Shown here: piece by piece, positions 5,266 to 62,240 of the stretch
Layout of the letters: every line of letters starts with the position of its first letter
Numbering within the stretch: the first letter of the stretch is position 1
Origin: Candidatus Woesearchaeota archaeon
Lineage (GTDB): Archaea > Nanobdellota > Nanobdellia > Woesearchaeales > UBA11576
Direction: 5' to 3'
Length of the DNA stretch: 64,000 nt
Assembly (NCBI GenBank): GCA_018668595.1
Contig: JABJCP010000026.1
Coordinates: forward strand, 323 to 64,322
The notes under the pieces: generated by a model
Database searches by the model: none
The model's input: only the letters and a program-made list of their open reading frames with translations
Told to the model about the DNA's origin: nothing
Made by a program: the position numbers and the translations under genes

Positions 5266-6357
5266 TTATTTTGAAAATCCAAACCGTCTCAACCAACTTT
5301 GCGCAGTTCCAGGTTCATCAGGCCCAAATTCAGTCGAAACACTCCCACTATAACCTGATCTTTGTTTAGATTCAGGTAACAAATAGGGTGCAGGTCTTCG
5401 AGCATAACTATTCCTAAAACTTTCAAATACATTAACTGCAGTTCCAAGCAAATCTCCTTTCAAACAAAGCTCGTCGCAAAGCATCATTTTTCTATAACCA
5501 ATATCATATAGCCACGCAAGTTCGGATAAATCTGCACAGCTAGGTACTGGTTTGTCCATTACAGATAATAACATTCTAGATCCAACTCCTGCGTCAGGAT
5601 CTTTATTAATAATTAACTTCATTGCATTTAATATGTCGTGTGGTTTGTCTACTTCTACATACATGTCTCCTCGTGCAGCCATTAAATTTAAATTATCACT
5701 TCGCCTAAATTCATTTTGCACATATCTTAATCCTGCTTTCGATTCAATTTTTGCATAAATGTGTGAGTCTCCTACCAACTCTCTAAACTCATCAATATCT
5801 CTTTGCGATTCAACAAATGATAAAAAATATTTATCAAATCCTGCTTTCATTGATTTTTCTATTTTTTCAATTTCATAGTCTAAAAAAATAGGGCCTGTCA
5901 CATTTAGACTAGGATCTCTAATATGTAACGACTCTCCTTCGTAAACCATAAACTCAGGTCCACCATCAAAAATTAAATGTTTTCCATCTACGACACGATC
6001 AAGAACTGCATAATCTTCTCCTGCTTTGAACAAAACTTCCACTGGTGTTTTGACTTCAATTGGATGGTTTAGTGTTAATTCTAAATTAGACTTATCTGCA
6101 TTAACTTCTCTTATTCGCAATTGTCTTCCTTTAAGATCAAAGTACATTGGAACTGCACCCTGAAGTTTTTTTGCTAAAGTCAATTCATTATCTAGTCTAT
6201 CTCCACCAACCATTGCACTGTTCAAACGAATTGCACTTAGTCTTTTATCTAAAGCAAATTGTTCAAAGTGAGGAAAAGTTGGCCACAATGTAACCGACAA
6301 TTCTAAATCTTTGAATCTTTGTTTATTTTTTCGCGCGTTCATTTTTTCCACCACCAT
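5266..6357 (-). CDS. Pyruvate-kinase-like TIM-barrel protein (divergent, no C-terminal regulatory domain)
   Basis: PK-type motifs AIRLNSA, FDLKGRQLRI, YFLSFVE, AKIESK and AARGDM. The canonical ATQMLESM is replaced by GSRMLLSV. Confidence 0.75.
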   Translation of the reverse strand: MVVEKMNARKNKQRFKDLELSVTLWPTFPHFEQFALDKRLSAIRLNSAMVGGDRLDNELTLAKKLQGAVPMYFDLKGRQLRIREVNADKSNLELTLNHPIEVKTPVEVLFKAGEDYAVLDRVVDGKHLIFDGGPEFMVYEGESLHIRDPSLNVTGPIFLDYEIEKIEKSMKAGFDKYFLSFVESQRDIDEFRELVGDSHIYAKIESKAGLRYVQNEFRRSDNLNLMAARGDMYVEVDKPHDILNAMKLIINKDPDAGVGSRMLLSVMDKPVPSCADLSELAWLYDIGYRKMMLCDELCLKGDLLGTAVNVFESFRNSYARRPAPYLLPESKQRSGYSGSVSTEFGPDEPGTAQSWLRRFGFSK

Positions 6358-6360
6358 AGT

Positions 6361-7335
6361 TTAGATTAATGATTTTGCACCTTTTGCTTTTTTCATTCTC
6401 CTCATAATTGATTCTCCTTCTTCTGAATGTCTAATGGAATCTCCCTGACCTTTGTGAATTGTGTAAAGAGATTTCATTACTGTTTCTACTTGTTGTGGTG
6501 TTTGTCTTCCTACTAATTCTTCATGGAAGTAATCAATTCTGTTTGTTTCTTGTGCTAAAATTCCAAAAATTGTGTCGACAACTCGTCCAGCTTCGGGCAG
6601 GATTGAAATTCTTTCTTCGCCTAAAATATTTGACCACTGTTGATATATTTGTCGATCTTTTGCACCTATATTATCACTCCACCCATTTTGATATGGTTTT
6701 CTAATTAAATAAACTGAAAATTTACTCATTAATTCTTCAATTACAGTTTTAGAATTTTTTCTTCCATCTACTTTTGTATATGCCCAATCTTTTGCATGAG
6801 CTTTGTTTACAAAATCATACAATCCTTCGTCGCCGATGTAAATAAAAACAGGATTTATTGCATTTGGCATTTCACAATTGTTTGCAAAGTAAAGTGCAGG
6901 TAGTTCATAACTTTCTTTCATTTGTCCTCCACCATTCCCTTCAATAATTAATTGTTGTAATCTTTTTTTAAGATCTGTTCCGGAGGTAAATGGTCTTACT
7001 TGCAGAGGATATTTATCAGTATAAGCATCACCTACTGCTGCAAAACAAATTTCCATATCTTCGCCTAAGTATTCTTTTCCTTCTAGTTCAAGATAAGGTA
7101 GTTTAGAAAACATTGTCGCTGGCCAATCACCCATGGATCCAGTTACATCACACGCAATTACCAATGGCGATGTGCTTTGAGTAATTACTTTTTTTTCTAA
7201 GAAAGAAGATTTATCTCTGTCTGAACTTACTGCTTGAGAATAACTTCTTCCTACATGCCGATCGTAAGTCTGACGAGCAGATTTAAAACTATGGCCACTC
7301 CAAGGTCCTGGGTTGTAATCTCCTGATTCTGACAT
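6361..7335 (-). CDS. vWA-domain protein
   Basis: MIDAS-like IACDVTGSM, FAAVGD, EGNGGG..ESYEL and FIYIGDE; GGAGG RBS. Confidence 0.75.
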   Translation of the reverse strand: MSESGDYNPGPWSGHSFKSARQTYDRHVGRSYSQAVSSDRDKSSFLEKKVITQSTSPLVIACDVTGSMGDWPATMFSKLPYLELEGKEYLGEDMEICFAAVGDAYTDKYPLQVRPFTSGTDLKKRLQQLIIEGNGGGQMKESYELPALYFANNCEMPNAINPVFIYIGDEGLYDFVNKAHAKDWAYTKVDGRKNSKTVIEELMSKFSVYLIRKPYQNGWSDNIGAKDRQIYQQWSNILGEERISILPEAGRVVDTIFGILAQETNRIDYFHEELVGRQTPQQVETVMKSLYTIHKGQGDSIRHSEEGESIMRRMKKAKGAKSLI

Positions 7336-7426
7336 TTTTATTCCTCCGTGGTTTAACTTATTTTTTGTTTTTTATTTTTAATTTACAATTTTTAATTTTT
7401 TTATTTGTTATATTAATTTTTTTTAC

Positions 7427-8515
7427 TCAAAATCCATCTATTGATTTAAGTTCAGAATATATTCGCCCAAATGAATCTTGTCTCACTTGTTTTATTGTTT
7501 CACACAAATCTTCTTTTTCCCAATTAGGTCTTGAAAGAACATCATAAACTAGTAGTCGTCGTATAAATTTACAAATTGGATCTGGAACACAGTCTGGAAC
7601 TCGTTTAGATTTTACATCTCCGCCTAGCGCATAGATCATAGTCATTCCAAGTGAATAAAAATCTGATTCTGGAAGTAAGGGTTGAGATCTTTTTTGTTCA
7701 GGCGGTGCAAAAAAAGGAGTGTATCCTTTATTCTTAGAACTATTTTGAGGATTTATCATGGATAGTCCATAATCGACGAGAACCACTGTGTGCTTTTCTG
7801 GTTGAACAATAACATTTTGTGGTTTTACATCTCCGTGTACAACTCCATGAAAATGCAAGTACTTCAATATATTTAAAGTTCGTTCTGCTATCCATGCTAC
7901 ATGTTCTGGATCTAGTTTTTTTGTTTTTTTAACGATTTGTTCTAATGTTGGTCCAGGAATATAACTCATAATTAATGCAGGACTTCCATCTTCAAGTTTC
8001 ATAACATCTTTTACTGCAGGTATTCCAAAATGTCTCAAATCCCACATTGCTTTTGCTTCTTCAAATAGAATTTCTGTATCTTGAGGAGAAACAAAATGTC
8101 CATGTTTTATACAAATAGGCGTGTTCAAATGTATGTGTTCTCCTTTGTATGTTTTTCCAAATCCTCCTTCTGCAATCAATTCTGTTACTTTATATTCTCC
8201 GACTATTTTTCCAAGCAAAGTATTTCTGTTTTGATCATATTCTGCTCTTTTATCGTCGTCTAATAAAACTGATTTTGCTGTATTTAAAATTTCAATAATT
8301 CTTTCTTCATTTACTTCTTCATCAACAGAATTAGAATATTCACTCAGTAAAGTATTATACGCTGCTTCAATTACTTCAGATCTTGCTCTCGGACTAACTT
8401 CTAAAATATCGTATAGATTAATTTTCGCAATATCTAAATCAGATTTGATAGCTGATTTAGTCTTTATTTTATTTTCTACTTTTTTCATTTTTGATTTAGT
8501 TTCTTTTTTTTTCAT
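7427..8515 (-). CDS. J-domain-like (HPD-less) / Ser-Thr protein kinase fusion
   Basis: NLYDILEV...IEAAY...AKSVLLDDDKRAEYD is J-like but lacks HPD. Kinase motifs AEGGFGKTY, CIK, HGDVKPQN, DYG, APPE and DFYSLG. Start placed at ATG 8515 (alternative 8488) because the upstream extension is A-rich low complexity. Confidence 0.85.
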   Translation of the reverse strand: MKKKETKSKMKKVENKIKTKSAIKSDLDIAKINLYDILEVSPRARSEVIEAAYNTLLSEYSNSVDEEVNEERIIEILNTAKSVLLDDDKRAEYDQNRNTLLGKIVGEYKVTELIAEGGFGKTYKGEHIHLNTPICIKHGHFVSPQDTEILFEEAKAMWDLRHFGIPAVKDVMKLEDGSPALIMSYIPGPTLEQIVKKTKKLDPEHVAWIAERTLNILKYLHFHGVVHGDVKPQNVIVQPEKHTVVLVDYGLSMINPQNSSKNKGYTPFFAPPEQKRSQPLLPESDFYSLGMTMIYALGGDVKSKRVPDCVPDPICKFIRRLLVYDVLSRPNWEKEDLCETIKQVRQDSFGRIYSELKSIDGF

Positions 8516-8875
8516 TTTTTGTTTTAATTGTTTTTTTATTTGTTTTTTTATTTGTGTACTGTATTTTTTTGTAGCTAAAGCTAATTTTTCCAGATTATCT
8601 AAAAACAATAGTCCCAACAATAGTTCACTAACAATATCGTACTAACAACAGTTTAGTAATTAATTTATCAATTCATAAAGTTTTTTAAAAAAGGTTAAAG
8701 TCGTCGAAAAAACATTTCAGCAGCAAAAAAACTATTTATCCATTATATTTACTATTAGACACGTTAGGAATATATTTGTGATGTATATTTTTAATATACT
8801 ACACGTTTTGTATATTCAATAGCACCCATTAACCCAAAAACTATTTAAACAAAACCAGTTTCCAAAATAAATAAT

Positions 8876-9529
8876 ATGAAAACAGTATTTATTAGTGCAA
8901 AATCAAGTATTGAAAAAATAGAGTTTGATATTAGTAAAATTAAGGATATCAAAAAAATAGGCATCTTAACTACTGTTCAATTTCTCCACGAAATTGGCAA
9001 AATAAAAAATTACTTGACAGAACAAGGGTTTGATCCTATTGAAGGTGGTCAAGTTCTTGGTTGTGAATTTGAAAACGCAAATAAAATAAAAGATCTTGTT
9101 GATGGATTTTTATATATTGGTTCTGGTAATTTTCACCCTATTGGAATCACACTACAGACAACAAAACCTGTTTTTATTTGGCATCCTGGTTCTGATAAAT
9201 TAACAGAAATTGATAAATCTAAAATAGATCAAATTCAAAAAAAGAAAAAAGGAATGTATACTAAGTTTCTCTCGTCAAAAGTAATTGGTGTTTTGGTTTC
9301 AACCAAACCTGGACAATATAATGTTCAAGCAAAACTTGATAAACTAAATAAATTGAAAACAGAATTCCCAAAAAAAGAATTTTATTTTTTCTTGACAAAC
9401 ACGTTTGATTTTAAAGAATTAGATAATTTTAATTTTATAGAATCCTGGATTAATGCTATGTGTCCGAGGATCGCAGAGGATATTAATGTTTTAAATTATT
9501 CTGATCTTGAAACGTTTAATAGCAACTAG
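8876..9529 (+). CDS. dph2: Diphthamide synthesis Dph2-family protein, N-terminally shortened
   Basis: ILTTVQF, GGQVLGC, IGSGNFHP, VLVSTKPGQ and AMCPRIAED. Only 217 aa. Confidence 0.82.
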   Translation: MKTVFISAKSSIEKIEFDISKIKDIKKIGILTTVQFLHEIGKIKNYLTEQGFDPIEGGQVLGCEFENANKIKDLVDGFLYIGSGNFHPIGITLQTTKPVFIWHPGSDKLTEIDKSKIDQIQKKKKGMYTKFLSSKVIGVLVSTKPGQYNVQAKLDKLNKLKTEFPKKEFYFFLTNTFDFKELDNFNFIESWINAMCPRIAEDINVLNYSDLETFNSN

Positions 9530-10239
9530 CTCGATCTTAGCATTTCTGAAATAGTTACAATTTTATATCCTTTATTTTTAATTCCTTTGATCACATAAGG
9601 TAATGCGTTTACTGTTTCTTTTCGAGTTTTTCCACCACCATCGTGAAACAATATTATATCTCCATGTTCTACATTATCTAAAACTTTAGTTATTATTTGT
9701 TCAGAAGATAAACCAAGATAATCTCGACTGTCTAAATTAAAATTGATAACTTGTAGTCCGAGTGATTCGACAATTTTTATTTGCTTCGGAGTTATCAGCC
9801 CATTTGGAGGTCTAAAATATTTTATTTCTGATGTATCAAAGTCATCAATTCCTGAATTTCCCAAAACTGATTTTGAAAGATAGATTTCTTGAATCAATAT
9901 TCTATCCTCAGTATTTGGCATAAATGGATGAGAGTATGTGTGAATTCCAACTTCATGACCTTGCCCTACTACTTGAGAAAAAATCTCTGGTTGAAATTCA
10001 ACATTTTGTCCCAACACAAAAAAAGTAGCTTTCACATTTTCTTCTTGGAGAATATCCAATATTTGTTCTGTGTATGGAGAATTTGGACCATCATCAAATG
10101 TTAGTGCCACACAATCTGAGCACTCACCTTTCCAAACTATTTGTTGCATTGGATTTGCAAAGTAAACAACCAACAATATGATTAGGAAAGACACAGCTGC
10201 CAAAAGCCCAATTAATGTTTTTAGATGTAAATCTCGCAC
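9526..10239 (-). CDS. Polysaccharide deacetylase (NodB homology) with N-terminal membrane anchor
   Basis: VALTFDDGP, ATFFVLG, GIHTYSHP, FRPPNG and IILFHD. Start placed at GTG 10239. Confidence 0.9.
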   Translation of the reverse strand: MRDLHLKTLIGLLAAVSFLIILLVVYFANPMQQIVWKGECSDCVALTFDDGPNSPYTEQILDILQEENVKATFFVLGQNVEFQPEIFSQVVGQGHEVGIHTYSHPFMPNTEDRILIQEIYLSKSVLGNSGIDDFDTSEIKYFRPPNGLITPKQIKIVESLGLQVINFNLDSRDYLGLSSEQIITKVLDNVEHGDIILFHDGGGKTRKETVNALPYVIKGIKNKGYKIVTISEMLRSS

Positions 10240-10469
10240 AACCACAATAATAAGGTAAATATTCACTTGATTTATAAATATTTTAGCTTTTCGCAGAAAA
10301 ACCACCCATTTTACTACTAAATAATGGCTAAAAAAACGAAACATTTATATATAATAAACACACCATATATTACAAGAAGAAGGCAATTTTATCATGATTT
10401 GTTGAGAATCAGTTTATTCAATTTTTTATTAAATTAGAGTTTAGCCACTAGGCTATAAGGCGAGAAAAG

Positions 10470-11060
10470 GTGTTGAGATTGGATGGAAGAAGTACTTATA
10501 CAAAATTAGAAGAACTTGGATTTAAACCAAGTATTATCGAAAAGATTCTTGCAATAGAGGCAGCACACGAAACTAATAGTCTCGCCAATAAATGTAGTAA
10601 AACAAGATCTGAAAATCAAGAAATGATAGCAGAAGCTGATAAATTAGCCGACGAGTATAATGTAGAAGGAAACATAGTTCTTCACGTAAAAGACGAGGAC
10701 TTGCCCGCAATTGATGATTTATTAAAAACAGAGCTTAATCTTAAGCCAGCTGATGACGATAATTGGGGAATTAGAGAAGGAAGTTGTACAAAGTGTCTCG
10801 TCTTTGAAAATCTAGATTATGTACGCGAAGGTCAAAAACCAGGAGTATTTAGAGTTCATTTAAGACCCTCTTACTTAAATCTAGAAGGAAAAGAAAAACA
10901 TGCAACAGTAAAGTTCCAATACTGGGATCAAAGAATTAACAAAAGGGCATATCAAGAAGATCCAATGCTGCAAGCAATAGACTTAATATTAATTCAAGAC
11001 ATCACACCCACACAAATTACAAACACTGGCGGAGAACCAATTGACAAGTACAATCAATAA
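10470..11060 (+). CDS. Hypothetical protein
   Basis: 196-aa ORF with protein-like composition; AAGGTG just before the TTG start; no motif recognised. Confidence 0.6.
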   Translation: MLRLDGRSTYTKLEELGFKPSIIEKILAIEAAHETNSLANKCSKTRSENQEMIAEADKLADEYNVEGNIVLHVKDEDLPAIDDLLKTELNLKPADDDNWGIREGSCTKCLVFENLDYVREGQKPGVFRVHLRPSYLNLEGKEKHATVKFQYWDQRINKRAYQEDPMLQAIDLILIQDITPTQITNTGGEPIDKYNQ

Positions 11061-11498
11061 TTACAAAAATACCCTTAATCGCAATATAACTGCAATATAA
11101 TACAATATAATCACTACAACCCTACAAATCATTCTACATAATAATTTTTTTCGTAATTTTTTCTCATTTTTCTTCTCGAGAATAACAAAAACAGAAGTTA
11201 TTGAAGAAATAATTCTACCAGTATACGAAAAGGTACAATCGGAAGTAACGGAAATAGGGGAAAAAACGGAACATTTATATATTTCATCAGACTACTAGAT
11301 TATAGAGTTGTTGGGGGTGCTTTTATCAAACCTCCTTACTCGCCTCTTTACTCGCCTCGTTTTTTTTTCTTTTTTTCTTTTTCCAAAAAATAATAAATAA
11401 AAAACAGATAACAGATTATTCCTTCTCATAAATATATCTCACCCTAACACATATAATTTAATTAGAGCACATTTACACAATTAAAGAATTAAATTAAT

Positions 11499-12059
11499 TT
11501 ATTTAGCCATCCAAATACCTACAACAACAAATGAAAATCCCATTATTGCAAAAAGAAATATCAAATTTAAAGTTGATTCTGTAAACAAAGGAGATATATC
11601 CAGGGTTTTTGGAGGTGGTGCATCAGGCATTATTACATCAGCAAATGAAACTGCGTTTCCCGAAATAGGAATTTCTCCTTTTTCTAAAAGTGATTGTCCA
11701 AAAACAAGAGATGCACCCAATGCGAAAATTATAAAAACAATCACCCCCACATATGTTCTCGTCGACGGATGAGTAAAAAAACTAGCAACATCCAGAGTTT
11801 TAGTTCCAAATGGCCCATACAATAGTGCACCTAAACCCAATGCGACAACAAGCAATGCGAGAAATGGAATAGAAAAACCCACAATATCTAAAATTGGTTT
11901 GAATAAAACAAGAATAACTATTATAAAAAATAATACAAGACCAGGACCTTGAGATATTTTATTCAACGGAGCCCATTGTTTAAGCAACGCATTTGCAAAT
12001 ACAACTATCACAATAAACGTGAAGATATATAACATAATAGTGCTCAAATCAAACATCAT
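11499..12059 (-). CDS. Multi-pass membrane protein, function unknown
   Basis: About five hydrophobic helices; GGGGG RBS-like sequence upstream. Confidence 0.75.
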   Translation of the reverse strand: MMFDLSTIMLYIFTFIVIVVFANALLKQWAPLNKISQGPGLVLFFIIVILVLFKPILDIVGFSIPFLALLVVALGLGALLYGPFGTKTLDVASFFTHPSTRTYVGVIVFIIFALGASLVFGQSLLEKGEIPISGNAVSFADVIMPDAPPPKTLDISPLFTESTLNLIFLFAIMGFSFVVVGIWMAK

Positions 12060-12143
12060 TTAAACCCCCTAAAACCAATAATGATCAATGTTGTAGATTG
12101 TTTATCTCATATATAAATTTGAGGGTTTTGATAGTATTTCAAA

Positions 12144-13088
12144 GTGATAACATTTATAAATAAGAAGGTCATAACTACAAATATGGGGGAAGAAAATGAT
12201 CACAATAGCACGTACAGCTTTACTGATGCTTTAGATAGAAATATAAGCTTAAGAAAGAAAAATGGCTCTCTTTCAGAAGTTATAATAAGTTTATTTAGAG
12301 ATTCTTATTTTATCCAACCAGATGCTATGAGATTTGCAATATTAGGAGATCTTCATGGACACATAACATTAGCACTCAATCAAATACATAAATGGGAACA
12401 ATTTTCTAATCTTAAATTTGATGCAATTTTACAAGTTGGAGATATCGGAGCATTTAATGAACATACTGTACTCGATAAAGTTACATTAGAAATGAGTGAG
12501 AAAGATCCTGACGAATTAGGATTTAAAAATTATCTTAATCAATCTAAAGAAGGCGATTTTTTCTTTGGAGAAAACGGAGTTTTAAAGAACACACCTTTTT
12601 ATTTCATTAATGGTAATCATGACGATTTAAAACTTCTTGAATCTAAAAACAATGATTTAAACAAAATTTGTTATTATTCACAAATTGAATATATTCCTAG
12701 TGGGAAAAAAATTACCTTAGAAAAAAAAGATTTAAAATCGACAATAGGCAGTTTAGGTTATACCTATGCTAATCGAGATTTAAAATTAATATCTAATGAC
12801 ATAAATATTCTTTTAAGTCACGTACCTCCTAAATCTCACTTAAATGAATATGGAGATCAAAACATTACAGAGCTTAAAACAATTCTACCCGACGCATTTC
12901 ATTTTTTTGGCCATTCACACGATCAAGCCGTTTCTCAATCAGTTCCTTACAAAAATCAATATGGACTTAATGAAGTTAACATAAAAAAAGGAGAGTTAAA
13001 ACAAAGCAGTATTGGTTTTCTAGAAATTTCTCAGACAAATTCTCAATTTTTATACTTACCTTCAAAATTAATTCCTAAAAAATCCTGA
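12144..13088 (+). CDS. Calcineurin-like metallophosphoesterase (start uncertain)
   Basis: GDLHG, QVGD, GNHD, LLSH and FFGHSH motifs. Confidence 0.88.
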   Translation: MITFINKKVITTNMGEENDHNSTYSFTDALDRNISLRKKNGSLSEVIISLFRDSYFIQPDAMRFAILGDLHGHITLALNQIHKWEQFSNLKFDAILQVGDIGAFNEHTVLDKVTLEMSEKDPDELGFKNYLNQSKEGDFFFGENGVLKNTPFYFINGNHDDLKLLESKNNDLNKICYYSQIEYIPSGKKITLEKKDLKSTIGSLGYTYANRDLKLISNDINILLSHVPPKSHLNEYGDQNITELKTILPDAFHFFGHSHDQAVSQSVPYKNQYGLNEVNIKKGELKQSSIGFLEISQTNSQFLYLPSKLIPKKS

Positions 13089-13110
13089 TAAAAAAATTTG
13101 AATAAACTAA

Positions 13111-14151
13111 TTAAGATAATCTAACATTTTCTTTAAAAACATCAATGTGTTCATCATCTGCTAAATTATGCTTATAAAAATCCTGATCTACCACAACAAG
13201 ACCTATCTTTCTATCTCTTCTTTTTGCAAAAGACAAATCTCGTAAGAAATGAAATATTTTATTAAACGGACCTAATTTTTCAGCATTTGATTCATAATAT
13301 GGTCCATGATATTGACCTTCTTTAAACAAACATCTACCTTCTAATGTAATTTGTTTAATTGTTTTTGTTTCAATAACAATCCCTAAATCAACATCGCTAA
13401 TTCTTTCAAAATCAGTAGGTAAACCTTTATGTTTACTATACTGCGAAGCAAATCCTGTTACAAGACTTCCATATAAGGATATTCTAATATGAATTACTCC
13501 ACTAACATCTAATCGAATAAACTTCATAAAATAGTCAGAATGAATATATTCTTTTAATTTATTTTTAATCAAAATAAATTCTCGTTCAGTAACTGTAGGT
13601 CCTGGTTGATTCAAGATTATTTCTTCAATTTGTAATTTCAAATATTTTTCTATTTTCTTTTTTAATCTTTTATTTGTTTTTAATTTGAAAAACTGAGAAT
13701 GCTTTTGGATAAATTTAGAAATTAATTCATTTGTTAATTCATGATATTCTAATAAATAATGAAAATCATCAATAACTTCGGTTTGTTTTTTTAGGTGTAA
13801 TTCTTCAGTTAATTTGATCGAGTCAATAACTTTGTTTATGTGTTTAACAAGATGAATTAAATTTTCGTGCTCAGATGGTCTTGCAAGATCTTTTATTTCT
13901 TCTAAAACCTCTTTTGCTTTTCGATAAACTGCATCATCTTGACGCATCAATTCAATAAGAATTTTTCGATCAATATGCCCTGCATCACAAATATGTTCAA
14001 AGAATTTAGGTGATCCCTCAGGGTGACTTAGTATTTGTTTTAGCTCTTTTTTTATTAATTCTAGATTTAACAATATAACTCTAGCATCATCAAGACCATT
14101 AGCCAATTTTTTTTCTATATTCTTTTTTTTAAAATAAGTCAAGATACCCAT
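13111..14151 (-). CDS. Helical N-terminus plus C-terminal Pol-beta-type nucleotidyltransferase-like domain
   Basis: LYGSLVTGF...RISDVDLGI matches a GS...DxD motif with an insertion, followed by KIGLVVVD. Start placed at ATG 14151 (MGILTYF). Confidence 0.55.
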   Translation of the reverse strand: MGILTYFKKKNIEKKLANGLDDARVILLNLELIKKELKQILSHPEGSPKFFEHICDAGHIDRKILIELMRQDDAVYRKAKEVLEEIKDLARPSEHENLIHLVKHINKVIDSIKLTEELHLKKQTEVIDDFHYLLEYHELTNELISKFIQKHSQFFKLKTNKRLKKKIEKYLKLQIEEIILNQPGPTVTEREFILIKNKLKEYIHSDYFMKFIRLDVSGVIHIRISLYGSLVTGFASQYSKHKGLPTDFERISDVDLGIVIETKTIKQITLEGRCLFKEGQYHGPYYESNAEKLGPFNKIFHFLRDLSFAKRRDRKIGLVVVDQDFYKHNLADDEHIDVFKENVRLS

Positions 14152-14272
14152 TATATGAATATAATAATAATAATAACATTTAAAGCTTTCTAAATTACTA
14201 AACAAAACACATAAAACCTCTGCAGTAAAAGAAATATTTATTAATGCGAACGATTCACAAAAAACCAACAAA

Positions 14273-15055
14273 ATGAATATCCTAATTCAAAACAAATTAA
14301 ATGAAAAACTCGACGCAGTAATCGAAGGAAACAAAGAGTCTAATCAAATTAACATTTTTGTCCATGGTTTTGGCACTAATAAAGATGAAGGATTTAATAT
14401 ATTCAAAGATCTTTCAGACTGTTTAAAACAAGATTTTCTCAACATCAGGTTTGATTTATCAGGTTATGGAAAAAGCGAAGGCAAAGATTATGAATTTAAT
14501 CTTGACAAAGCAGCAGACGATATTGAGTCAGTAATAAATTATGTAAAAAAACAATATTCCACCAAAAAAATAAACATTATCGCACACTCCCTTGGAACAT
14601 TTGCAGTAATGAGTCTGTCTCCTGCAAATATTACTAACATTACTAAAATAATCTTCACAGGAATTCCTAATTCAAAAACAGACTTTGTAGTAAAAGGAAT
14701 TCAAAAAAGAATATCCTCAAAAGGAGGAGAAATAAATGAATCAGGAATCACAACATATCCTCGATCAAGTGGTACCAAAGATATGATCGGTCCACAGTTT
14801 TGGACGACATTAAAAAATTTAAATCCATTAGAAGCACTAACCCATATTGGGAACAAAACAAACATAACTATTTTTAAGCCAATGCAAGATGAAGTGCTAG
14901 AGTATAAATATTTTGAAGAATATAAAAAAATAAGCGACAAAGAAGAAAATAAAAACCAAATTAATTATATTGAGCTCAACGGAGACCATAATTTTTCTAA
15001 ACCAAAAAATCGTAAGAATTTATTTGAACAAATAAAAAAAATATTATTATCTTAA
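14273..15055 (+). CDS. Alpha/beta hydrolase
   Basis: FVHGF, RFDLSGYGKSEG, nucleophile AHSLG, DEV and C-terminal GDHNF. Confidence 0.9.
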   Translation: MNILIQNKLNEKLDAVIEGNKESNQINIFVHGFGTNKDEGFNIFKDLSDCLKQDFLNIRFDLSGYGKSEGKDYEFNLDKAADDIESVINYVKKQYSTKKINIIAHSLGTFAVMSLSPANITNITKIIFTGIPNSKTDFVVKGIQKRISSKGGEINESGITTYPRSSGTKDMIGPQFWTTLKNLNPLEALTHIGNKTNITIFKPMQDEVLEYKYFEEYKKISDKEENKNQINYIELNGDHNFSKPKNRKNLFEQIKKILLS

Positions 15056-15933
15056 TGTTTATTAAACAAAATCAATCCCGATCTACGCATACTTCCAAAT
15101 TCTATTAAATTTGAACGCACAATTATTTCAGAACCAATATTGCCAGAATCAGATATAACTATTTTATTTCCTTTATTAAAGAGTTTATGATCTGAATTTT
15201 CACTAGTCAATAAAACTCCAGAATAATCAAAACCAGAACTATTAAATTTACAATGTTCAAAAACATGAACTCCTGTTTCATTCGAGTAATAAACCCCCAA
15301 ACTTAGTTTCTCCTTCAACCAATCTGCAAACTCAGAATTTAATTCACACACCGAGTCAAAATATCCATTAGCAATATCAATTGCACAACCACATTGAAAT
15401 GAGCAAGGGTAAAAGTCAATTAAAAGCAAACCAAAAAATCGCAGTAAATAATTAAGTCCAAAATAAACATCAGAAGCAGATTCACTATTTTGCATTGTGA
15501 TAATTGTATGATCTTTGTGAAAAAACTGTTCAGCCAGCCCATAATTTTTCATATAAAATCTTGCACAACATTCAGGATATCCCAATAACAAGCCAAGATT
15601 ATAATCATCTTGATTTGATTCATAGACTTTTGCTTTTTCTACAAGAGCTAAATCTTTTGAAAAGTAAACAAATCTCTTATCACCAACAAGGAAATCAGAG
15701 TAAACAAAGTGTAGCCCTAATTTTTCGCAAGCAGAACTTAGCCAAATTAAAACATCATCAGAAATAACCAGTTCAAATCGAGATACTGGTTTTAAACCTA
15801 AATGTGCAAAATAAACATTAATTGCATCCATGGGATTTTCAAATACTGCTAATAAATCAACACCACAACAAACTAACTTAAACTTACTTTTACATTCCTT
15901 AATTAATTTGTTTTTATCAGACATGCCAAACAC
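15052..15933 (-). CDS. DUF483-like protein
   Basis: LGLLLGYPECC..F and FYPCSFQC motifs. Confidence 0.65.
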   Translation of the reverse strand: MFGMSDKNKLIKECKSKFKLVCCGVDLLAVFENPMDAINVYFAHLGLKPVSRFELVISDDVLIWLSSACEKLGLHFVYSDFLVGDKRFVYFSKDLALVEKAKVYESNQDDYNLGLLLGYPECCARFYMKNYGLAEQFFHKDHTIITMQNSESASDVYFGLNYLLRFFGLLLIDFYPCSFQCGCAIDIANGYFDSVCELNSEFADWLKEKLSLGVYYSNETGVHVFEHCKFNSSGFDYSGVLLTSENSDHKLFNKGNKIVISDSGNIGSEIIVRSNLIEFGSMRRSGLILFNKH

Positions 15934-16037
15934 TAAACAGAGAAATAGTTTTGTTTTATTAAATATATCTTAACTAGAAACAATAAGTCAACACGTTATC
16001 AAAAAATTATTAAACAACCGCTCAAATCACTAAATCT

Positions 16038-16625: not shown

Positions 16626-16701
16626 AAAAACATCCATACTTAATATTATTTTTCTTATCAGTTTCCAAAATCTTCTTCCAAAAAGTTCTTCCGCAAAAAC
16701 T

Positions 16702-17061: not shown

Positions 17062-17069
17062 TTTATTCA

Positions 17070-57619: not shown

Positions 57620-57626
57620 ACAACAA

Positions 57627-58439: not shown

Positions 58440-58860
58440 CTTGTAATTTTGATGAACATCAAAAGTCTCTTTTCTATATTTCCCAGTTCTTCAATATTTT
58501 GAAACGTACTGATTTTTTTAAAAAATCAAAGAATATGCTTTAAGTTTCTCAAAGAATAAACGGAAAATGTTATTGTCACCATAACCCCCGTCTGCGTAAA
58601 GAATATTTAGTTTGTAATATCTACTAAGTTTTTTGATCATTAGCTTAACATCTTTTGTATTGTGCCGAGCTTTTTTTTTCAAATTGTACAGCAAAATAAC
58701 ATAACTTTCAATATCGACGAAAAACACCCAATATAATTTACAGTTTTCTTAGGAGAGTTTTATAATGGTCCTATTCAAAACAAAACACATAATTTAATTG
58801 CAAACAAAAATAAATTATAATTTGGCACTATGCACGCAGTGTAGATTTTTACTTAATGAT
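58440..58860 (-). pseudogene. Decayed IS5/IS4-like DDE transposase fragment
   Basis: VFVDIESYVIL...RHNTKD...LYADGGY is typical of DDE_Tnp_1. In-frame stops lie upstream and there is a frameshift at an A-run downstream. Boundaries are approximate. Confidence 0.65.
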
Positions 58861-59165: not shown

Positions 59166-59945
59166 ATGAAAAAAAGAAAAAACATAGAAATTATTGTAAA
59201 ATTAAATAATGCAAGTTCACATCACGTACAAGAATTTGCTATACAGGAATCACTGGGCAACAATCAAAAAGCATTAATAAAATTATCATATGCAACTTCT
59301 TACAAATTCTATGCTAATATGTTTGATAAACCACAACTTGAAGATGATCAAATAGTTGAAAAAACAATTAGAGACATTGTTTCCGAGGCAAATTTTTGGC
59401 AAAATGAAGGACTTGGAAAAACAATTATCCATTTAAATTCACCCAACACCGCATATAATTTGCTAAATAAAGTAGGTAACACAATAAAAGATTATCCATT
59501 TTGGAGCGGATATTTCTTTGCAGAACATTGGGATAATAAAAATGCACTAAAAGTATTTAATAATTTATCAAAAAATAATCCTGTCAATTTGCATTGGCAG
59601 GGAAATTTACTTACAAAAGTCGGACGCTTTAATGAAGCATTAATACCCCTAGTAGAAGTTGCAAAAATGGAACCAAACAGATATAATCATTTTTCACATC
59701 TGGGTAATGCATATCGTGGTCTAGGTATAAAATATGAAGCAAAAATAGCATATAAGAAAGCAATTTCATTAATATTAAACAAAGAAAATATTGGGAGAGT
59801 TGAACATATTCACCTTGTAAGAAGTTATCATGGTCTTTCTCGTTTGGGCTTTAATGAATACCGTTTAGCTGAAGATAAACAGCAAAAAGAAGCAATTCGA
59901 ACTGGAACAGTTAGTAAACATGAACTCGAAAGAATCAAATTTTAA
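59166..59945 (+). CDS. TPR-repeat protein
   Basis: HWQGNLLTKVGRFNEAL...AKMEPN..HFSHLGNAYRGLG..EAKIAYKKA. Confidence 0.8.
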   Translation: MKKRKNIEIIVKLNNASSHHVQEFAIQESLGNNQKALIKLSYATSYKFYANMFDKPQLEDDQIVEKTIRDIVSEANFWQNEGLGKTIIHLNSPNTAYNLLNKVGNTIKDYPFWSGYFFAEHWDNKNALKVFNNLSKNNPVNLHWQGNLLTKVGRFNEALIPLVEVAKMEPNRYNHFSHLGNAYRGLGIKYEAKIAYKKAISLILNKENIGRVEHIHLVRSYHGLSRLGFNEYRLAEDKQQKEAIRTGTVSKHELERIKF

Positions 59946-59956: not shown

Positions 59957-61108
59957 ATGACAAAAAATGAAGAATTACTTAATAATACAATCAGAACCTG
60001 TAATACTGGCACTATCAGCATAACTGCTAAAGTGACAAAAAGATGCAATATCAGACCTGCTTGTGAATATTGTTATGATTTCGAGGCACAATCCGATAAT
60101 AAGGAGTTCGATATGTCTACCCAGACACTTGACAATTTAATAAAAAAATCAGTAGGAAGCGGTGATTTTAATAGAGTTATTTTTGTATGGCACGGTGGTG
60201 AACCATTGGTTGTAGGGAAAAAGTTTTATCAAAAAGCACTTGAATTTCAGGATAAATACAATTCGGGAAAAGTTATTATCGAAAATCGATTGCAGACAAA
60301 TGCTGTTGCAATGGATAGAGCATGGATTAATTTTTTAAAAACTCATAATTTCAAGATGGAATCCAGCTTTGATGCATTTGATAATGATAAATCAAGAGGG
60401 AAGTCTCAACAAGTATTAAGGAATCTTTTGCTTGCAAAAGACATGGATTATGCTCCAGGAAATGTTATGTTTATTGTAACAAAAAGAAATGTTAATAGAC
60501 TTAAGGAAGCGTATGATTATTTCAATAAAAGGGAACTTAATTTCACACCTTCACCAATTATTTCGCTTGGTCAAGCATGTCAATATAAAGAATTATCTAT
60601 CACTCCAGAAGAATATGGTCATTCTGTAGTTGACCTCATGGATTACATTTTAAAGCAGCCAAAACCAAAGATCAAAGTACGTTTTATCGACGCTGTACTT
60701 CGATCAGTTCTAGGTTTTGAACAGAATTTATGTAGTCACGGTTTTTGTGCGTATCAATTTATTGCCAGCGAGTCAAGTGGTGAAATTTATCCCTGTGCAA
60801 AAGTAGATCAACCTGAATGGAGCTTTGGAAATATTAATGAACTTGACAAATTGTCAGACATTTTTTCAACAGAAAAATATAGAAAATATGGAACTGCAGC
60901 CACTAATAGATTAACTGATTGCCTAACTGAAAATAGCGGCAAACCCTGCGAAGTTTTTCAACATTGTAAAGGAGGTTGTGCGAGTAACTCACTTGCCGCA
61001 GGTGGATACTCAAAAAGAGATTTTTATTGTACAGCCTATAGAATCGTATTTAATCACGCTCTTAATGTTAGAGCTGAGTTATTAAAACAATTAAATAACG
61101 GAGGATAA
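59957..61108 (+). CDS. Radical SAM/SPASM-domain maturase (CX5CX2C variant)
   Basis: CNIRPACEYCY, WHGGEPL, QTNA; SPASM LCSHGFC, GEIYPC, HCKGGC and FYC. Confidence 0.92.
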   Translation: MTKNEELLNNTIRTCNTGTISITAKVTKRCNIRPACEYCYDFEAQSDNKEFDMSTQTLDNLIKKSVGSGDFNRVIFVWHGGEPLVVGKKFYQKALEFQDKYNSGKVIIENRLQTNAVAMDRAWINFLKTHNFKMESSFDAFDNDKSRGKSQQVLRNLLLAKDMDYAPGNVMFIVTKRNVNRLKEAYDYFNKRELNFTPSPIISLGQACQYKELSITPEEYGHSVVDLMDYILKQPKPKIKVRFIDAVLRSVLGFEQNLCSHGFCAYQFIASESSGEIYPCAKVDQPEWSFGNINELDKLSDIFSTEKYRKYGTAATNRLTDCLTENSGKPCEVFQHCKGGCASNSLAAGGYSKRDFYCTAYRIVFNHALNVRAELLKQLNNGG

Positions 61109-61110
61109 AA

Positions 61111-61296
61111 ATGGAAAAAATAAAAAAAGATTTGGATAAAATAGTAAAAGAAGCTAAGAAAGATTCAGCAGTACTGGAAAAATTAAATTTACCCAAACAC
61201 ATCAAATCGATTATAACTGAAGAAGCAGGATACAACCCCGCAAAGATAGGCGGCTATAAATCAGAAGGTAAGTGTGATCACCAGTATCACAATTAA
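61111..61296 (+). CDS. Putative RiPP precursor peptide
   Basis: 61 aa with a GGAGG RBS, directly after the rSAM gene. Helical leader followed by a Gly/Tyr/His-rich C-terminus (AGYNPAKIGGYKSEGKCDHQYHN). Confidence 0.7.
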   Translation: MEKIKKDLDKIVKEAKKDSAVLEKLNLPKHIKSIITEEAGYNPAKIGGYKSEGKCDHQYHN

Positions 61297-61328
61297 TTTT
61301 TTTTACTTTTTTTTGAGGAATTCAATAA

Positions 61329-62240
61329 ATGGAAATTATATATACTGCATCACCCTATGAAACATATCACGAAGAGATTAATAAAATGCCAAGTGTTTCT
61401 GGCATGCGATTAAATACCATATCTCAAATTAGTGAACCTTTAACTAATTTAATTTCTAGATTAGATTCTAAAATTGGAGAGAACAAACTTTGGATAGATC
61501 TTAAAGGGAGACAATTAAGAATCATTGATAAAAAAAGAACACCTTATCACATTGAACTGACATTAAACCACAAATTAACAGCAGATTTACCATTAAAAGT
61601 TGAGTTTAATACAGGAACATTAAAGGGTAGGATTACCCATGCATATGAGGATAAAGCAATATTGCTTGATTGTAAGTGGGATGATATTCGTGCAGGACAA
61701 TCTTTAAATATTACTCACCCAAGTCTTAAAGTTGAAAAATACCTGAGCCCTAGTTGTGAATTGTATATAAAAGCCGCAAAGAAATGTGGTGTTCATAATT
61801 ATATGTTATCATTTGCGGAAGAAGAATCAGATGTAAGTGATGTACTTGCTATTGATTCCGCAGCAAAGATATATGCAAAAATTGAAACAAAAAGAGGTGT
61901 TGATAATTTTGTTGAAAATGTATTCCCTAAATATAAAGATAGTATTCGGTTAATCGCTGCACGAGGAGATTTATTATTACATCTTAATTCAGCACATGAT
62001 TTAGATGATACATTAACAAAAATCATCAAATTTGATTCTAATGCAATTTTAGCTTCACGTCTTCTTGCAACCTCAAAAGAAAAAATTAGTTCACAAGATA
62101 TGTCCGATTTATTTTATATCCTGCGCGATCTTAAATATCAATCATTTCTTATTGGAGATGGAGTTAGTTTATTCAAACCCTCACTTATAAGAGCAATTAA
62201 CGCTCTTAATACTGTAAATTCAAAGGTTAATGAAAAGTGA
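61329..62240 (+). CDS. Pyruvate-kinase-like TIM-barrel protein (homologue of 5266..6357)
   Basis: MRLNT, IDLKGRQLRI, LTLNH, MLSFAE, AKIETK, AARGDL and ASRLL. Confidence 0.75.
   Translation: MEIIYTASPYETYHEEINKMPSVSGMRLNTISQISEPLTNLISRLDSKIGENKLWIDLKGRQLRIIDKKRTPYHIELTLNHKLTADLPLKVEFNTGTLKGRITHAYEDKAILLDCKWDDIRAGQSLNITHPSLKVEKYLSPSCELYIKAAKKCGVHNYMLSFAEEESDVSDVLAIDSAAKIYAKIETKRGVDNFVENVFPKYKDSIRLIAARGDLLLHLNSAHDLDDTLTKIIKFDSNAILASRLLATSKEKISSQDMSDLFYILRDLKYQSFLIGDGVSLFKPSLIRAINALNTVNSKVNEK

What the first reader, a model, noticed from the sequence alone, without database searches (positions are those of the whole stretch)
5266..62240. The same divergent pyruvate-kinase-like family is recruited twice into unrelated accessory operons
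Seen: 5266..6357 and 61329..62240 share motifs that differ from canonical PK in the same way: DLKGRQLRI for DTKGPEIR, LTLNH, and SR(M/L)L for TQML. Both keep the AKIE Lys/Glu and the ARGD Asp, and both lack the C-terminal allosteric domain. One lies in a kinase/vWA operon and the other in an rSAM/peptide operon, each alongside a kinase-fold enzyme. Inference: an uncharacterised PK-fold subfamily with a non-glycolytic function, such as PEP-dependent phosphotransfer, local NTP regeneration or modification of another substrate.
Basis: partly seen in the sequence, partly recalled or inferred. Interest (0 to 1): 0.62.

Follow-up and report, generated by a model that had tools for sequence, protein, structure and literature searches.

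The report
Mini pyruvate-kinase paralogues in two operons
A small archaeon carries three copies of a stripped-down, undescribed relative of the glycolytic enzyme pyruvate kinase; two sit in the family's usual kinase-plus-vWA operon, which elsewhere lies inside NAD-recycling gene clusters, and one has moved into a rare peptide-modifying radical-SAM operon.

Summary
Window 5266-6357(-) and 61329-62240(+) encode paralogues (30% identity, E 4e-36) that share the quoted motifs and lack the PK C-domain.

They belong to one clade ("PKL": 100% support, very long stem) outside canonical pyruvate kinases. The genome also has a canonical PK. PKL keeps the PEP, metal and phosphate residues (R73, N75, D113, R120, K270, E272, D296; T328 is Ser). 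Its K+ site is rebuilt, and it has an invariant His in the lid domain.

The two contexts are not equivalent.
- The kinase/vWA context is the family's native one. A novel MIDAS vWA protein sits next to PKL in about 72 of 77 loci from 353 species and one huge phage. This genome holds a second such triad outside the window.
- In the sister clade, the vWA-PKL pair lies inside NAD salvage operons (NadM 33/34, NadE 31/46).
- The radical-SAM/peptide context is rare. I found two instances with PKL and a third peptide locus without it. This copy has no vWA partner.

Most likely PKL is an active, K+-independent PEP-dependent phosphotransferase with a non-glycolytic role. Its acceptor is unknown. A role replacing NadC or PncB was tested and rejected. 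I found no published description.

The parts
7427..8620 (-). Hanks-type Ser/Thr kinase with an N-terminal J-like domain (no HPD motif); first gene of triad A
   Evidence: Pfam Pkinase 104.5 bits and DnaJ 32.9 bits. The translation shows GxGxxG, HGDVKPQN, DYG and APPE motifs, and YSNS where HPD would be. A kinase lies upstream of PKL in 29/31 clade-A loci.
6361..7335 (-). VWX: a novel MIDAS-type vWA protein (324 aa), the obligate neighbour of PKL
   Evidence: No Pfam, NCBIfam or PADLOC hit. About 970 homologues, all unannotated. Invariant residues D63, T65, G66, S67 ... G168, D169, E170; conserved N-terminus MSESGDYDPGPW and C-terminus K-S-L-[IL]. AF2 pLDDT 83.7; Foldseek best hits are integrin beta I-like vWA domains, E 3e-7. 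Its stop codon lies 3 nt before the PKL start.
5266..6357 (-). PKL clade A (P0001): a C-domain-less pyruvate-kinase-like A+B-domain protein
   Evidence: PF00224 54.9 bits. More than 1140 homologues at 60-70% identity in DPANN and CPR organisms. AF2 pLDDT 88.8; the top 50 Foldseek hits are all pyruvate kinases, E 4e-18. Falls in clade A (97% support) in the tree.
59166..59945 (+). TPR protein; first gene of the rSAM/peptide operon
   Evidence: Weak TPR hits. A 12-nt gap separates it from the next gene, and about 750 nt of non-coding DNA lie upstream.
59957..61108 (+). Radical SAM/SPASM peptide-maturase-like enzyme 1
   Evidence: Below-cut-off best hits to anSME (TIGR03942, 199.8 bits) and DynA (NF041298, 189 bits), plus a SPASM domain. 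Its C-terminus is conserved in loci L135 and L136 next to the same peptide.
61111..61296 (+). 61-aa putative precursor peptide (…EAGYNPAKIGGYKSEGKCDHQYHN)
   Evidence: A GGAGGA Shine-Dalgarno-like motif lies upstream. Only three family members exist among 1.84 billion cluster representatives, all ending CDxxYHN. All three lie directly after an rSAM1 homologue.
61329..62240 (+). PKL orphan copy (P0002), without a vWA partner
   Evidence: Scores 344 bits against the PKL HMM, versus 66-67 bits for the genome's true PKs. Keeps all 13 residues invariant across the 92 PKLs censused. Groups with P0123 (100% support) inside clade B. The same gene order occurs on an independent contig. Its stop overlaps the next gene's GTG start.
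62237..63334 (+). Radical SAM/SPASM enzyme 2
   Evidence: TIGR03942 162 bits, DynA 152 bits, SPASM domain. ATGA overlap with the next gene.
63331..64000 (+). APH/CotS/homoserine-kinase-fold phosphotransferase. It runs past the window end (349 aa in full) and is followed by two more rSAM genes.
   Evidence: PF01636 APH 53.7 bits on the full ORF. NCBIfam hits to homoserine kinase and CotS, all below cut-off. Downstream rSAM genes at L011:2700-3893(+) and 3871-5046(-).

Best explanation
Both genes encode members of one undescribed pyruvate-kinase paralogue family, called PKL here. PKL has the A (TIM barrel) and B (lid) domains only.

Inferred activity. PKL is a catalytically active, Mg2+-dependent and probably K+-independent enzyme. 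It binds PEP or pyruvate and transfers the phosphoryl group to a nucleotide-type acceptor. It is not the cell's glycolytic PK. Its missing allosteric C-domain is replaced in trans by a dedicated MIDAS vWA partner (VWX). In archaea, CPR bacteria and one huge phage, a Hanks kinase is also part of the unit.

Shown facts. The family's home context is VWX-PKL, with or without a kinase. In the sister clade this pair is embedded in NAD salvage and biosynthesis operons (PncB, PncA, NadE, Nudix, NadM, NadK).

Inferred role. PKL therefore serves adenine or pyridine nucleotide upkeep rather than glycolysis.

In the window:
- 5266-8620(-) is a standard clade-A triad.
- 61329-62240(+) is a divergent orphan copy that lost VWX. 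It was captured by a rare rSAM/SPASM precursor-peptide operon that has its own APH-fold kinase. There it most likely supplies the same chemistry (PEP-driven phosphorylation or ATP supply) for peptide maturation. This last step is the weakest inference.
For: Distinct family:
- The PKL clade (92 sequences) has 100% SH-aLRT support and a stem of 3.84 substitutions/site. It separates from 8 canonical and 3 short PKs.
- The PKL HMM scores the three PKLs at 344 bits or more, but the genome's canonical PK and PK350 at only 66-67 bits.
- A canonical 481-aa PK is present in the genome.

PK fold and active site:
- The top 50 Foldseek hits are all PKs.
- The family profile aligns over its full length to E. 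coli PykF, E 6e-19.
- 36 of 36 members hit only PF00224.
- In 92 of 92 PKLs the equivalents of R73, N75, D113, K115, R120, K270, E272 and D296 are invariant, and T328 is always Ser.

Rebuilt K+ site: Leu/Val/Ile at T113, Arg at P116 (88/92), Gln at E117 (91/92). Leu113 with a non-Glu residue at 117 marks K+-independent PKs (PMC4284704, PMC8835810, PMC4374775).

Context:
- VWX lies within two genes of PKL in 30/33 clade-A and 42/44 clade-B loci.
- A kinase lies upstream in 29/31 clade-A and 16/37 clade-B loci.
- NadM-like NT lies upstream in 33/34 clade-B loci, and NadE nearby in 31/46.
- NT best matches the archaeal NMNAT models at 80-112 bits, below their cut-offs. NadE scores 435 bits to NF010588, just under its 479-bit cut-off.

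Example operon in the complete genome of archaeon AR15: PncB, a 174-aa protein, PncA, NadE, Nudix, NadM, kinase, VWX, PKL, NadK.

Other support:
- The triad also occurs in a 485-kb phage.
- The orphan copy has the same order (rSAM1, peptide, PKL, rSAM2) on an independent SRA contig at 50% identity.
- Genes in the window operon overlap or lie 2-32 nt apart.
Against: - No biochemical data exist for any member.
- Several PK residues are not kept: the lid Lys (K207 equivalent), the S362/E364 proton-relay pair and H78. True ADP-dependent PK activity is therefore uncertain.
- The window's own copies are not next to NAD genes. NT or NadE is near 0 of 34 clade-A loci.
- A kinase plus vWA context is typical of signalling or conflict modules, so PKL could be a sensor rather than an effector.
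- The third known peptide locus (L136) has no PKL between the peptide and the next rSAM gene. PKL is therefore not obligatory for that system.
- The NAD link is guilt by association only.
Confidence: 0.5

Rival explanations
1. PKL is a ligand-sensing, non-catalytic or weakly catalytic subunit. It would bind PEP, pyruvate or a nucleotide and report energy status to the vWA/kinase pair, which then controls other proteins such as NAD enzymes. On this view the module is a signalling switch, not a metabolic enzyme.
For: - vWA plus Ser/Thr kinase modules are known signalling or conflict switches, for example the TerY-P triad (PMC11090510).
- The allosteric C-domain, the lid Lys and the S362/E364 relay are lost.
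- VWX has conserved terminal peptides that look like docking motifs.
Against: - All metal, PEP-phosphate and catalytic Lys residues are 100% invariant in 92 sequences spanning two domains of life and a phage. That is unusual for a pure sensor.
- Bacterial clade-B operons mostly lack the kinase (upstream in 16/37 clade-B loci; none in the NadM-VWX-PKL-NadE arrangements) but keep VWX-PKL between nadM and nadE.
Confidence: 0.17
2. PKL uses the conserved Mg2+/enolate site for chemistry other than phosphoryl transfer to a nucleotide. Examples are decarboxylation or lyase-type C-C chemistry on an alpha-keto acid, or transfer of a PEP-derived C3 unit to a small molecule or to the peptide.
For: - The PEP/pyruvate superfamily includes lyases and mutases built on the same barrel.
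- The nucleotide-side residues (K207, H78) are not conserved, while the pyruvate and metal side is.
- The setting inside a peptide-modification operon.
Against: - The two phosphate-binding arginines (R73 and R120 equivalents) are invariant.
- No family member hits HpcH/HpaI, PEP mutase or any Pfam family other than PK.
- The fold and lid-domain topology are PK-specific.
Confidence: 0.12
3. They are simply extra glycolytic pyruvate-kinase isozymes that happen to be short. The neighbourhoods would have no functional meaning.
For: - Public annotation calls many members 'pyruvate kinase'.
- The catalytic core is retained.
Against: - A canonical PK is present in the same genome.
- PKL scores far below every PK equivalog cut-off: 54 and 35 bits against 306 for TIGR01064.
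- PKL forms a separate long-branched clade.
- The vWA partner is conserved in 72 of 77 assessable loci across phyla.
- 12 of 31 relatives lack any PK-family hit, and PKL occurs both with and without canonical PK.
Confidence: 0.05
4. VWX-PKL is a non-homologous replacement for the NaMN-forming step of NAD synthesis (NadC, PncB or NadV).
For: Six of twelve bacterial genomes with nadM-VWX-PKL-nadE lacked NadA, NadC and NAPRTase-family hits.
Against: - In DPANN operons PncB sits in the same operon as VWX-PKL.
- Across 20 VWX-positive genomes (Chloroflexi plus two Acidobacteria), 12 have a strong NadC hit, against 8 of 20 VWX-negative relatives. There is no anticorrelation.
Confidence: 0.03
5. The orphan PKL at 61329-62240 is a passenger insertion in the rSAM operon, without a role in peptide maturation.
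For: - The third peptide locus lacks PKL at that position.
- The operon has a possible IS remnant at its left edge.
Against: - Order and tight spacing are conserved in a second organism at only about 50% protein identity.
- The stop and start codons overlap with the downstream rSAM gene.
- All catalytic residues are kept despite the long branch.
Confidence: 0.13

Closest known systems
Canonical pyruvate kinase (EC 2.7.1.40), especially K+-independent enzymes with Leu113 and a non-Glu residue at 117 (PMC4284704, PMC8835810, PMC4374775)
   Same: - A-domain TIM barrel with the B-domain lid inserted at the same point.
- Equivalents of R73, N75, D113, R120, K270, E272 and D296 are kept.
- Hydrophobic residue at position 113, as in K+-independent PKs.
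   Different: - No C-domain.
- B domain about 30 residues shorter.
- Arg at 116 and Gln at 117; Ser for T328; Arg for Q329.
- No K207 equivalent.
- An invariant lid His (H98).
- A separate clade on a very long stem.
- An obligate vWA neighbour.
- Scores of 35-60 bits against PK equivalog cut-offs of 306-686.
TerY-P triad (TerY-like vWA + PP2C phosphatase + Ser/Thr kinase with a C-terminal zinc ribbon), as summarised in PMC11090510
   Same: A three-gene unit that pairs a MIDAS vWA protein with a Hanks-type kinase. It is mobile across lineages and also found in phage.
   Different: - No PP2C phosphatase in the window or in surveyed loci.
- The kinase carries an N-terminal J-like domain, not a C-terminal zinc ribbon.
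- The third gene is a PK-like enzyme.
- The vWA protein matches no Pfam, NCBIfam or PADLOC vWA or TerY model.
Preiss-Handler NAD salvage operons (pncA, pncB, nadM/nadD, nadE, nadK, Nudix)
   Same: In clade B, VWX-PKL lies inside such operons in DPANN archaea, Chloroflexi and Acidobacteria. The window's own genome has such a cluster on contig C40, with a different C-domain-less PK.
   Different: The window's two PKL copies are not in that cluster. No known NAD pathway step is assigned to a PK-fold or vWA protein.
rSAM/SPASM peptide-maturation systems with a short precursor (PqqA/PqqE, mycofactocin MftA/MftC, darobactin and dynobactin DarE/DynA, anSME family)
   Same: A short precursor peptide with conserved C-terminal Tyr, Cys and His residues, encoded directly after an rSAM/SPASM enzyme. 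Several rSAM genes lie in one operon.
   Different: - All rSAM hits fall below the equivalog cut-offs.
- The peptide family has only three known members.
- No described system of this type includes a PK-fold enzyme plus an APH-fold kinase. That last point rests on my own knowledge and on literature searches with no hit.
PEP-utilising phospho-histidine enzymes (PTS Enzyme I, pyruvate phosphate dikinase). Compared by mechanism only.
   Same: A PEP/pyruvate-superfamily barrel working with a mobile domain. PKL has an invariant His on its mobile lid, next to the R120-equivalent hinge arginine.
   Different: No sequence or domain homology to the Enzyme I or PPDK His domain. Phospho-His formation is pure conjecture.

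Membership tests
Pyruvate kinase proper (TIGR01064 / PF00224 + PF02887) | Score above the curated family cut-offs | tested here: not met
   TIGR01064: 54.3 bits (P0001) and 34.9 bits (P0002) against a cut-off of 306.4. PF00224: 54.9 bits (met) and 22.7 bits (not met) against a cut-off of 30.
Pyruvate kinase proper (TIGR01064 / PF00224 + PF02887) | C-terminal alpha/beta (allosteric, tetramer-forming) domain | tested here: not met
   No PK_C hit in any of 36 members. The proteins are 303-363 aa, and the model ends after the A domain.
Pyruvate kinase proper (TIGR01064 / PF00224 + PF02887) | Catalytic constellation R73, K270, E272, D296, T328 (rabbit numbering) | tested here: met
   R, K, E and D are invariant in 92 of 92 sequences. 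T328 is conservatively replaced by an invariant Ser.
Pyruvate kinase proper (TIGR01064 / PF00224 + PF02887) | K+ site (T113, E117), lid Lys207, and S362/E364 relay | tested here: not met
   Leu/Val/Ile at 113 and Gln at 117. There is no Lys at the K207-aligned position. Position 362 is Gly, Cys or Ser, and 364 is variable.
Pyruvate kinase proper (TIGR01064 / PF00224 + PF02887) | Placement inside the canonical PK clade | tested here: not met
   PKL is a separate clade with 100% SH-aLRT support.
Pyruvate kinase proper (TIGR01064 / PF00224 + PF02887) | ADP + PEP -> ATP + pyruvate activity | not testable with these tools
   Needs an enzyme assay.
HpcH/HpaI aldolase / citrate-lyase beta family | Match to PF03328, or an aldolase-type barrel without a lid domain | tested here: not met
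   No member hits any Pfam family other than PK. The top 50 structural matches are all PKs with the lid domain.
vWA / MIDAS domain (for the partner VWX) | vWA fold with a DxSxS...T...D metal site | tested here: met
   The predicted fold matches integrin beta I-like vWA domains, E 3e-7. D63-x-T65-x-S67 and D169 are invariant. No sequence model of vWA matches it.
TerY-P triad | PP2C phosphatase gene in the unit, and a kinase with a C-terminal zinc ribbon | tested here: not met
   No PP2C among the window neighbours or in the recurrent gene orders. The kinase has an N-terminal J-like domain.
vWA-PKL module of NAD operons (defined here and in earlier notes from this scan) | PKL directly downstream of a VWX-family gene | tested here: met
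   Met for 5266-6357 (VWX at 6361-7335). Not met for 61329-62240: the genome has only two VWX genes, on C9 and C14.
vWA-PKL module of NAD operons (defined here and in earlier notes from this scan) | NadM-like NMNAT and/or NadE within a few genes | tested here: not met
   Neither window copy has them. This is a clade-B trait (0/34 in clade A). The genome's NadM and NadE lie on contig C40.
rSAM/SPASM RiPP-type maturation operon (context of the second copy) | Radical SAM + SPASM enzyme next to a short conserved precursor peptide | tested here: met
   Radical_SAM, Fer4_12 and SPASM hits. The peptide is conserved in three loci, always after rSAM1. Actual modification of the peptide is not testable here.

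The most novel reading that the evidence does not exclude
PKL may not be a nucleotide kinase at all. It could be a PEP-driven phospho-histidine enzyme.

The invariant lid histidine (H98 in P0001, H81 in P0002) sits beside the hinge arginine. It would take the phosphoryl group from PEP, as in Enzyme I or PPDK, and pass it to a partner or substrate. In the triads and NAD operons the acceptor would be the MIDAS site of VWX or a pyridine or adenine nucleotide intermediate. In the rSAM operon it would be the 61-aa peptide.

The second operon would then make a phosphorylated or PEP-decorated, peptide-derived cofactor-like product.
Probability: 0.1. Interest if true: 0.85.

Novelty: new variant of a known kind. 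Interest (0 to 1): 0.6.

Why it matters
If PKL is an active PEP-dependent phosphotransferase tied to a dedicated vWA partner, it defines a new functional branch of one of the best-studied enzyme families. That branch occurs in at least 353 species across DPANN archaea, CPR bacteria, Chloroflexi and Acidobacteria, and in a huge phage. Public annotation labels its members either 'pyruvate kinase' or 'hypothetical protein'.

Calling it a glycolytic pyruvate kinase inflates glycolytic reconstructions of ultra-small symbionts. Its tight embedding in NAD salvage operons suggests an unrecognised step or control point in NAD or adenylate upkeep.

The orphan copy in an rSAM/peptide operon offers a second, simpler experimental handle, with no vWA and no Hanks kinase, on what chemistry the barrel performs.

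Tried and rejected
1. Non-orthologous displacement of NadC, PncB or NadV by VWX-PKL. Rejected: they co-occur. PncB lies in the same DPANN operons. Strong NadC hits occur in 12 of 20 VWX-positive genomes against 8 of 20 VWX-negative ones.
2. Known anti-phage defence system. PADLOC hits only the generic kinase domain; VWX and PKL match nothing.
3. HpcH/HpaI or another PEP/pyruvate-superfamily family. No hits.
4. The 484-aa protein next to PK350 on contig C40 as a hidden VWX analogue or NAPRTase. hhalign probability 0.1; no PDB or PncB similarity.
5. Identity of the roughly 290-aa gene inserted between VWX and PKL in some archaea. No Pfam, NCBIfam, PDB or VWX similarity.
6. More relatives of the orphan copy. 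Two metagenome scans found none. The best hit in 200 genomes of the same order is 38% identical and lies in ordinary triads.
7. Literature. Five full-text searches combining PK-like, vWA, kinase, NAD and DPANN terms found no description of the family or module.
8. The sigma-70 promoter and terminator scan is uninformative for an archaeon.
9. I could not read model coordinates, so the position of H98 relative to the active site rests on the secondary-structure register only.

Full report
**1. The observation**

ORFs at 5266-6357(-) (363 aa, P0001) and 61329-62240(+) (303 aa, P0002) exist as described. Every quoted motif is present at equivalent positions: DLKGRQLRI, LTLNH, AKIE, ARGD and SRML/SRLL. 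The proteins align end to end at 30% identity, E 4e-36.

Both match only the pyruvate-kinase barrel family PF00224. P0001 scores 54.9 bits. P0002 scores 22.7 bits, under the 30-bit cut-off. Both fall far below every NCBIfam PK cut-off. Neither has a PK C-domain.

The window is archaeal (ribosomal protein S6e, diphthamide synthase, ZPR1). It comes from a 2.3-Mb, 30% GC DPANN-type genome.

**2. Fold and active site**

An AlphaFold2 model of P0001 (36-sequence alignment, pLDDT 88.8) shows a TIM barrel, an inserted beta lid and a disordered tail. Its 50 best PDB matches are all pyruvate kinases (E about 4e-18, TM 0.6-0.69). A family profile aligns over its full length to E. coli PykF residues 1-335 and hits nothing but PKs. 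All 36 aligned members hit PF00224 and no other Pfam family.

I censused 92 family members.
- Invariant: the equivalents of rabbit-muscle R73, N75, D113, K115, R120, K270, E272 and D296.
- T328 is always Ser.
- Family-specific changes are equally fixed:
  - Leu/Val/Ile for T113.
  - Arg for P116 (88/92).
  - Gln for E117 (91/92).
  - Arg for Q329 (89/92).
  - An invariant His (H98) in the lid.
- The lid Lys (K207), H78 and the S362/E364 pair are not kept.

Leu113 with a non-Glu residue at 117 is the published signature of K+-independent PKs (PMC4284704, PMC8835810, PMC4374775). Inference: the PEP, metal and phosphate side of the site is intact, the K+ site is replaced (possibly by Arg116), and the nucleotide side is remodelled.

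**3. Phylogeny**

I built a maximum-likelihood tree of 104 sequences. PKL forms one clade (92 sequences, 100% SH-aLRT, stem 3.84 substitutions/site), apart from canonical PKs and from a small group of C-domain-less but otherwise ordinary PKs.
- Clade A (97% support) holds P0001 and its relatives at 60-70% identity from Woesearchaeota, Pacearchaeota, CPR bacteria and others.
- Clade B holds a large NAD-context group, the genome's third copy, and P0002 paired with P0123 (100% support).

The genome also encodes a canonical 481-aa PK. The PKL HMM scores the three PKLs at 344 bits or more, against 66-67 bits for the true PKs.

**4. The kinase/vWA context is the family's home**

The 324-aa protein at 6361-7335 (VWX) has no hit in Pfam, NCBIfam or PADLOC. 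It has about 970 unannotated homologues. It carries an invariant DxTxS...D MIDAS-like pattern and conserved termini. Its predicted fold is vWA / integrin beta I-like.

A pattern scan of one genome per species found 353 species with a PKL. I surveyed 80 loci by ORF calling and custom HMMs.

| Feature near PKL | Clade A | Clade B |
|---|---|---|
| VWX within two genes | 30/33 | 42/44 |
| Hanks kinase upstream | 29/31 | 16/37 |
| NadM-like NT upstream | 0/34 (NT or NadE) | 33/34 |
| NadE nearby | 0/34 (NT or NadE) | 31/46 |

Most apparent exceptions are ORF-calling artefacts in high-GC contigs.

The same triad occurs in three further places:
- in a Woesearchaeota contig;
- in a 485-kb phage;
- a second time in this genome on contig C14, as kinase, VWX, PKL and a PurA-like gene. 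All three proteins are 28-39% identical to the window's set.

In the window, VWX and PKL are 3 nt apart. The kinase has intact catalytic motifs, but its J-like domain lacks HPD.

**5. Link to NAD metabolism**

The gene upstream of clade-B modules best matches archaeal-type NMN adenylyltransferase (NF002243 and TIGR01527, 80-112 bits, below cut-off). The downstream gene is NAD synthetase (NF010588, 435 bits against a cut-off of 479).

Two operons show the full setting.
- Complete genome of archaeon AR15: PncB, a 174-aa protein, PncA-type isochorismatase, NadE, Nudix, NadM, kinase, VWX, PKL, NAD kinase.
- Another Woesearchaeote: PncB, PncA, a small rSAM protein, NadE, NadM, kinase, VWX, PKL, nucleoside hydrolase, ADP-ribosylglycohydrolase.

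In Chloroflexi and Acidobacteria the unit is NadM-VWX-PKL-NadE, usually without a kinase.

The window's genome keeps its NAD genes on contig C40: NadM, NadK, PncB, NadE, Nudix, ARH, nucleoside hydrolase and PncA. There a different C-domain-less PK (350 aa, 244 bits to PF00224) sits between a kinase/NadM pair and a PRTase. That PK shares the Leu113 and Gln117 substitutions. Barrel-only PKs therefore sit beside NAD salvage genes in two separate lineages of the tree. Earlier notes from this scan report the same trio-NAD association in other genomes. I reached it independently and treat those notes as leads only.

**6. What the NAD link does not mean**

I tested whether VWX-PKL replaces the NaMN-forming step.
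- Six of twelve bacterial carriers lacked NadA, NadC and NAPRTase.
- However, DPANN operons contain PncB alongside the module.
- In a wider sample, strong NadC hits are at least as frequent in VWX-positive genomes (12/20) as in VWX-negative ones (8/20).

The displacement idea is rejected.

**7. The rSAM/peptide context is a rare secondary capture**

Genes 59166-65570 form one tight operon: TPR, rSAM/SPASM, 61-aa ORF, PKL, rSAM/SPASM, APH-fold kinase, rSAM. Gaps are 2-32 nt or 4-nt overlaps, and a fourth rSAM gene converges on it.

None of the 80 surveyed PKL loci has a SPASM-type rSAM neighbour. The best relative of P0002 in 200 genomes of the same order is 38% identical and sits in ordinary triads. 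Two metagenome scans found nothing closer.

One SRA contig carries a 50%-identical PKL (P0123) in the same order: rSAM1 C-terminus, 60-aa peptide, PKL, rSAM2 N-terminus.

A profile of the two peptides finds only one further member among 1.84 billion representatives. All three end in CDxxYHN and share an aromatic-Gly/GY core. That third locus comes from a 54% GC organism and is an 808-nt contig. It has rSAM1, the peptide, then an rSAM gene directly, with no PKL in between.

P0002 keeps all 13 residues invariant across the 92 PKLs censused. It has no cognate VWX, because the genome has only two VWX genes. Operon GC content equals that of the genome. A possible IS remnant lies at its left edge.

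**8. Mechanism**

Shown:
- PK fold;
- conserved PEP, metal and phosphate residues;
- a distinct clade;
- an obligate vWA neighbour, with a frequent kinase;
- an NAD-operon setting in clade B;
- a rare rSAM setting for P0002.

Inferred:
- PKL is an active, K+-independent, PEP-dependent phosphotransferase with an undetermined nucleotide-type acceptor.
- The missing allosteric domain is replaced by regulation in trans through VWX, which docks by its MIDAS site, and by kinase phosphorylation.
- The orphan copy contributes the same chemistry to peptide maturation, beside the operon's own APH-fold kinase.

Rivals are a sensor or pseudoenzyme role, non-kinase enolate chemistry, a plain isozyme, and a passenger insertion. 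They are weighed in their own sections.

**9. Known relatives and novelty**

- The module resembles TerY-P triads only in pairing a vWA protein with a kinase. It lacks PP2C, and the kinase architecture differs.
- Five literature searches found no description.
- I rate it a new variant of a known kind: a new, widespread PK-superfamily branch with a dedicated partner. Its appearance in an rSAM peptide operon is new even relative to earlier notes from this scan.

Noticed in passing
Own genome, contig C40:12191-33728 (outside the window; locus L010 covers 8000-20000): An NAD(P) salvage supercluster. It holds a 521-aa kinase, NadM, a 484-aa protein of unknown fold, a 350-aa C-domain-less but otherwise canonical PK (with the Leu113 and Gln117 substitutions), a PRTase, NadK, PncB, NadE, Nudix, ADP-ribosylglycohydrolase, a nucleoside hydrolase, PncA, a second NadK-like gene and a second Nudix gene.
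   Followed up: partly
Own genome, contig C14:103094-107692 (locus L009:2295-6893): A second kinase/VWX/PKL triad, followed by a divergent adenylosuccinate-synthetase-like gene (218 bits against a cut-off of 402). The genome has three PurA-like genes. The same PurA-like adjacency recurs in loci L015 and L039.
   Followed up: partly
window 8240-8420 (-), kinase residues 68-129: The J-like domain of the kinase has YSNS where the HPD motif should be. It probably cannot stimulate Hsp70. A Lys-rich N-terminal extension precedes it, so the true start codon is uncertain.
   Followed up: partly
window 6361-7335 (-): The VWX family has a near-invariant N-terminus, MSESGDYDPGPW, and a conserved extreme C-terminus, K-[SP]-L-[ILV], after a disordered Lys/Ser-rich tail. 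They look like docking or phosphorylation motifs.
   Followed up: no
window 58518-58727 (-): This 69-aa ORF, in the 750-nt gap left of the rSAM operon, reads ...LNILYADGGYGDNNIF.... It resembles the end of a DDE transposase and may be an IS remnant marking an insertion boundary. GC content of the operon is not atypical.
   Followed up: partly
L134 (phage LR745208.1, 131689-134652 of the record): A 485-kb uncultured phage carries the complete kinase/VWX/PKL triad. Its PKL is 47% identical to P0001.
   Followed up: partly
Loci L054, L056, L058, L060, L068, L071, L077, L084: A roughly 290-aa protein of unknown family is inserted between VWX and PKL (or before VWX) in a subset of archaeal clade-B operons.
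   Followed up: partly
PDB entry 8iw2: A 321-aa chain deposited as 'pyruvate kinase' matches the PKL profile about as well as full-length PKs. It may be a solved barrel-only PK worth comparing.
   Followed up: no
window 1817-3124 (-): An AAA_14 / DUF4143 ATPase gene lies downstream of the triad on the same strand, about 2 kb from PKL with short ORFs between. It is probably unrelated.
   Followed up: no
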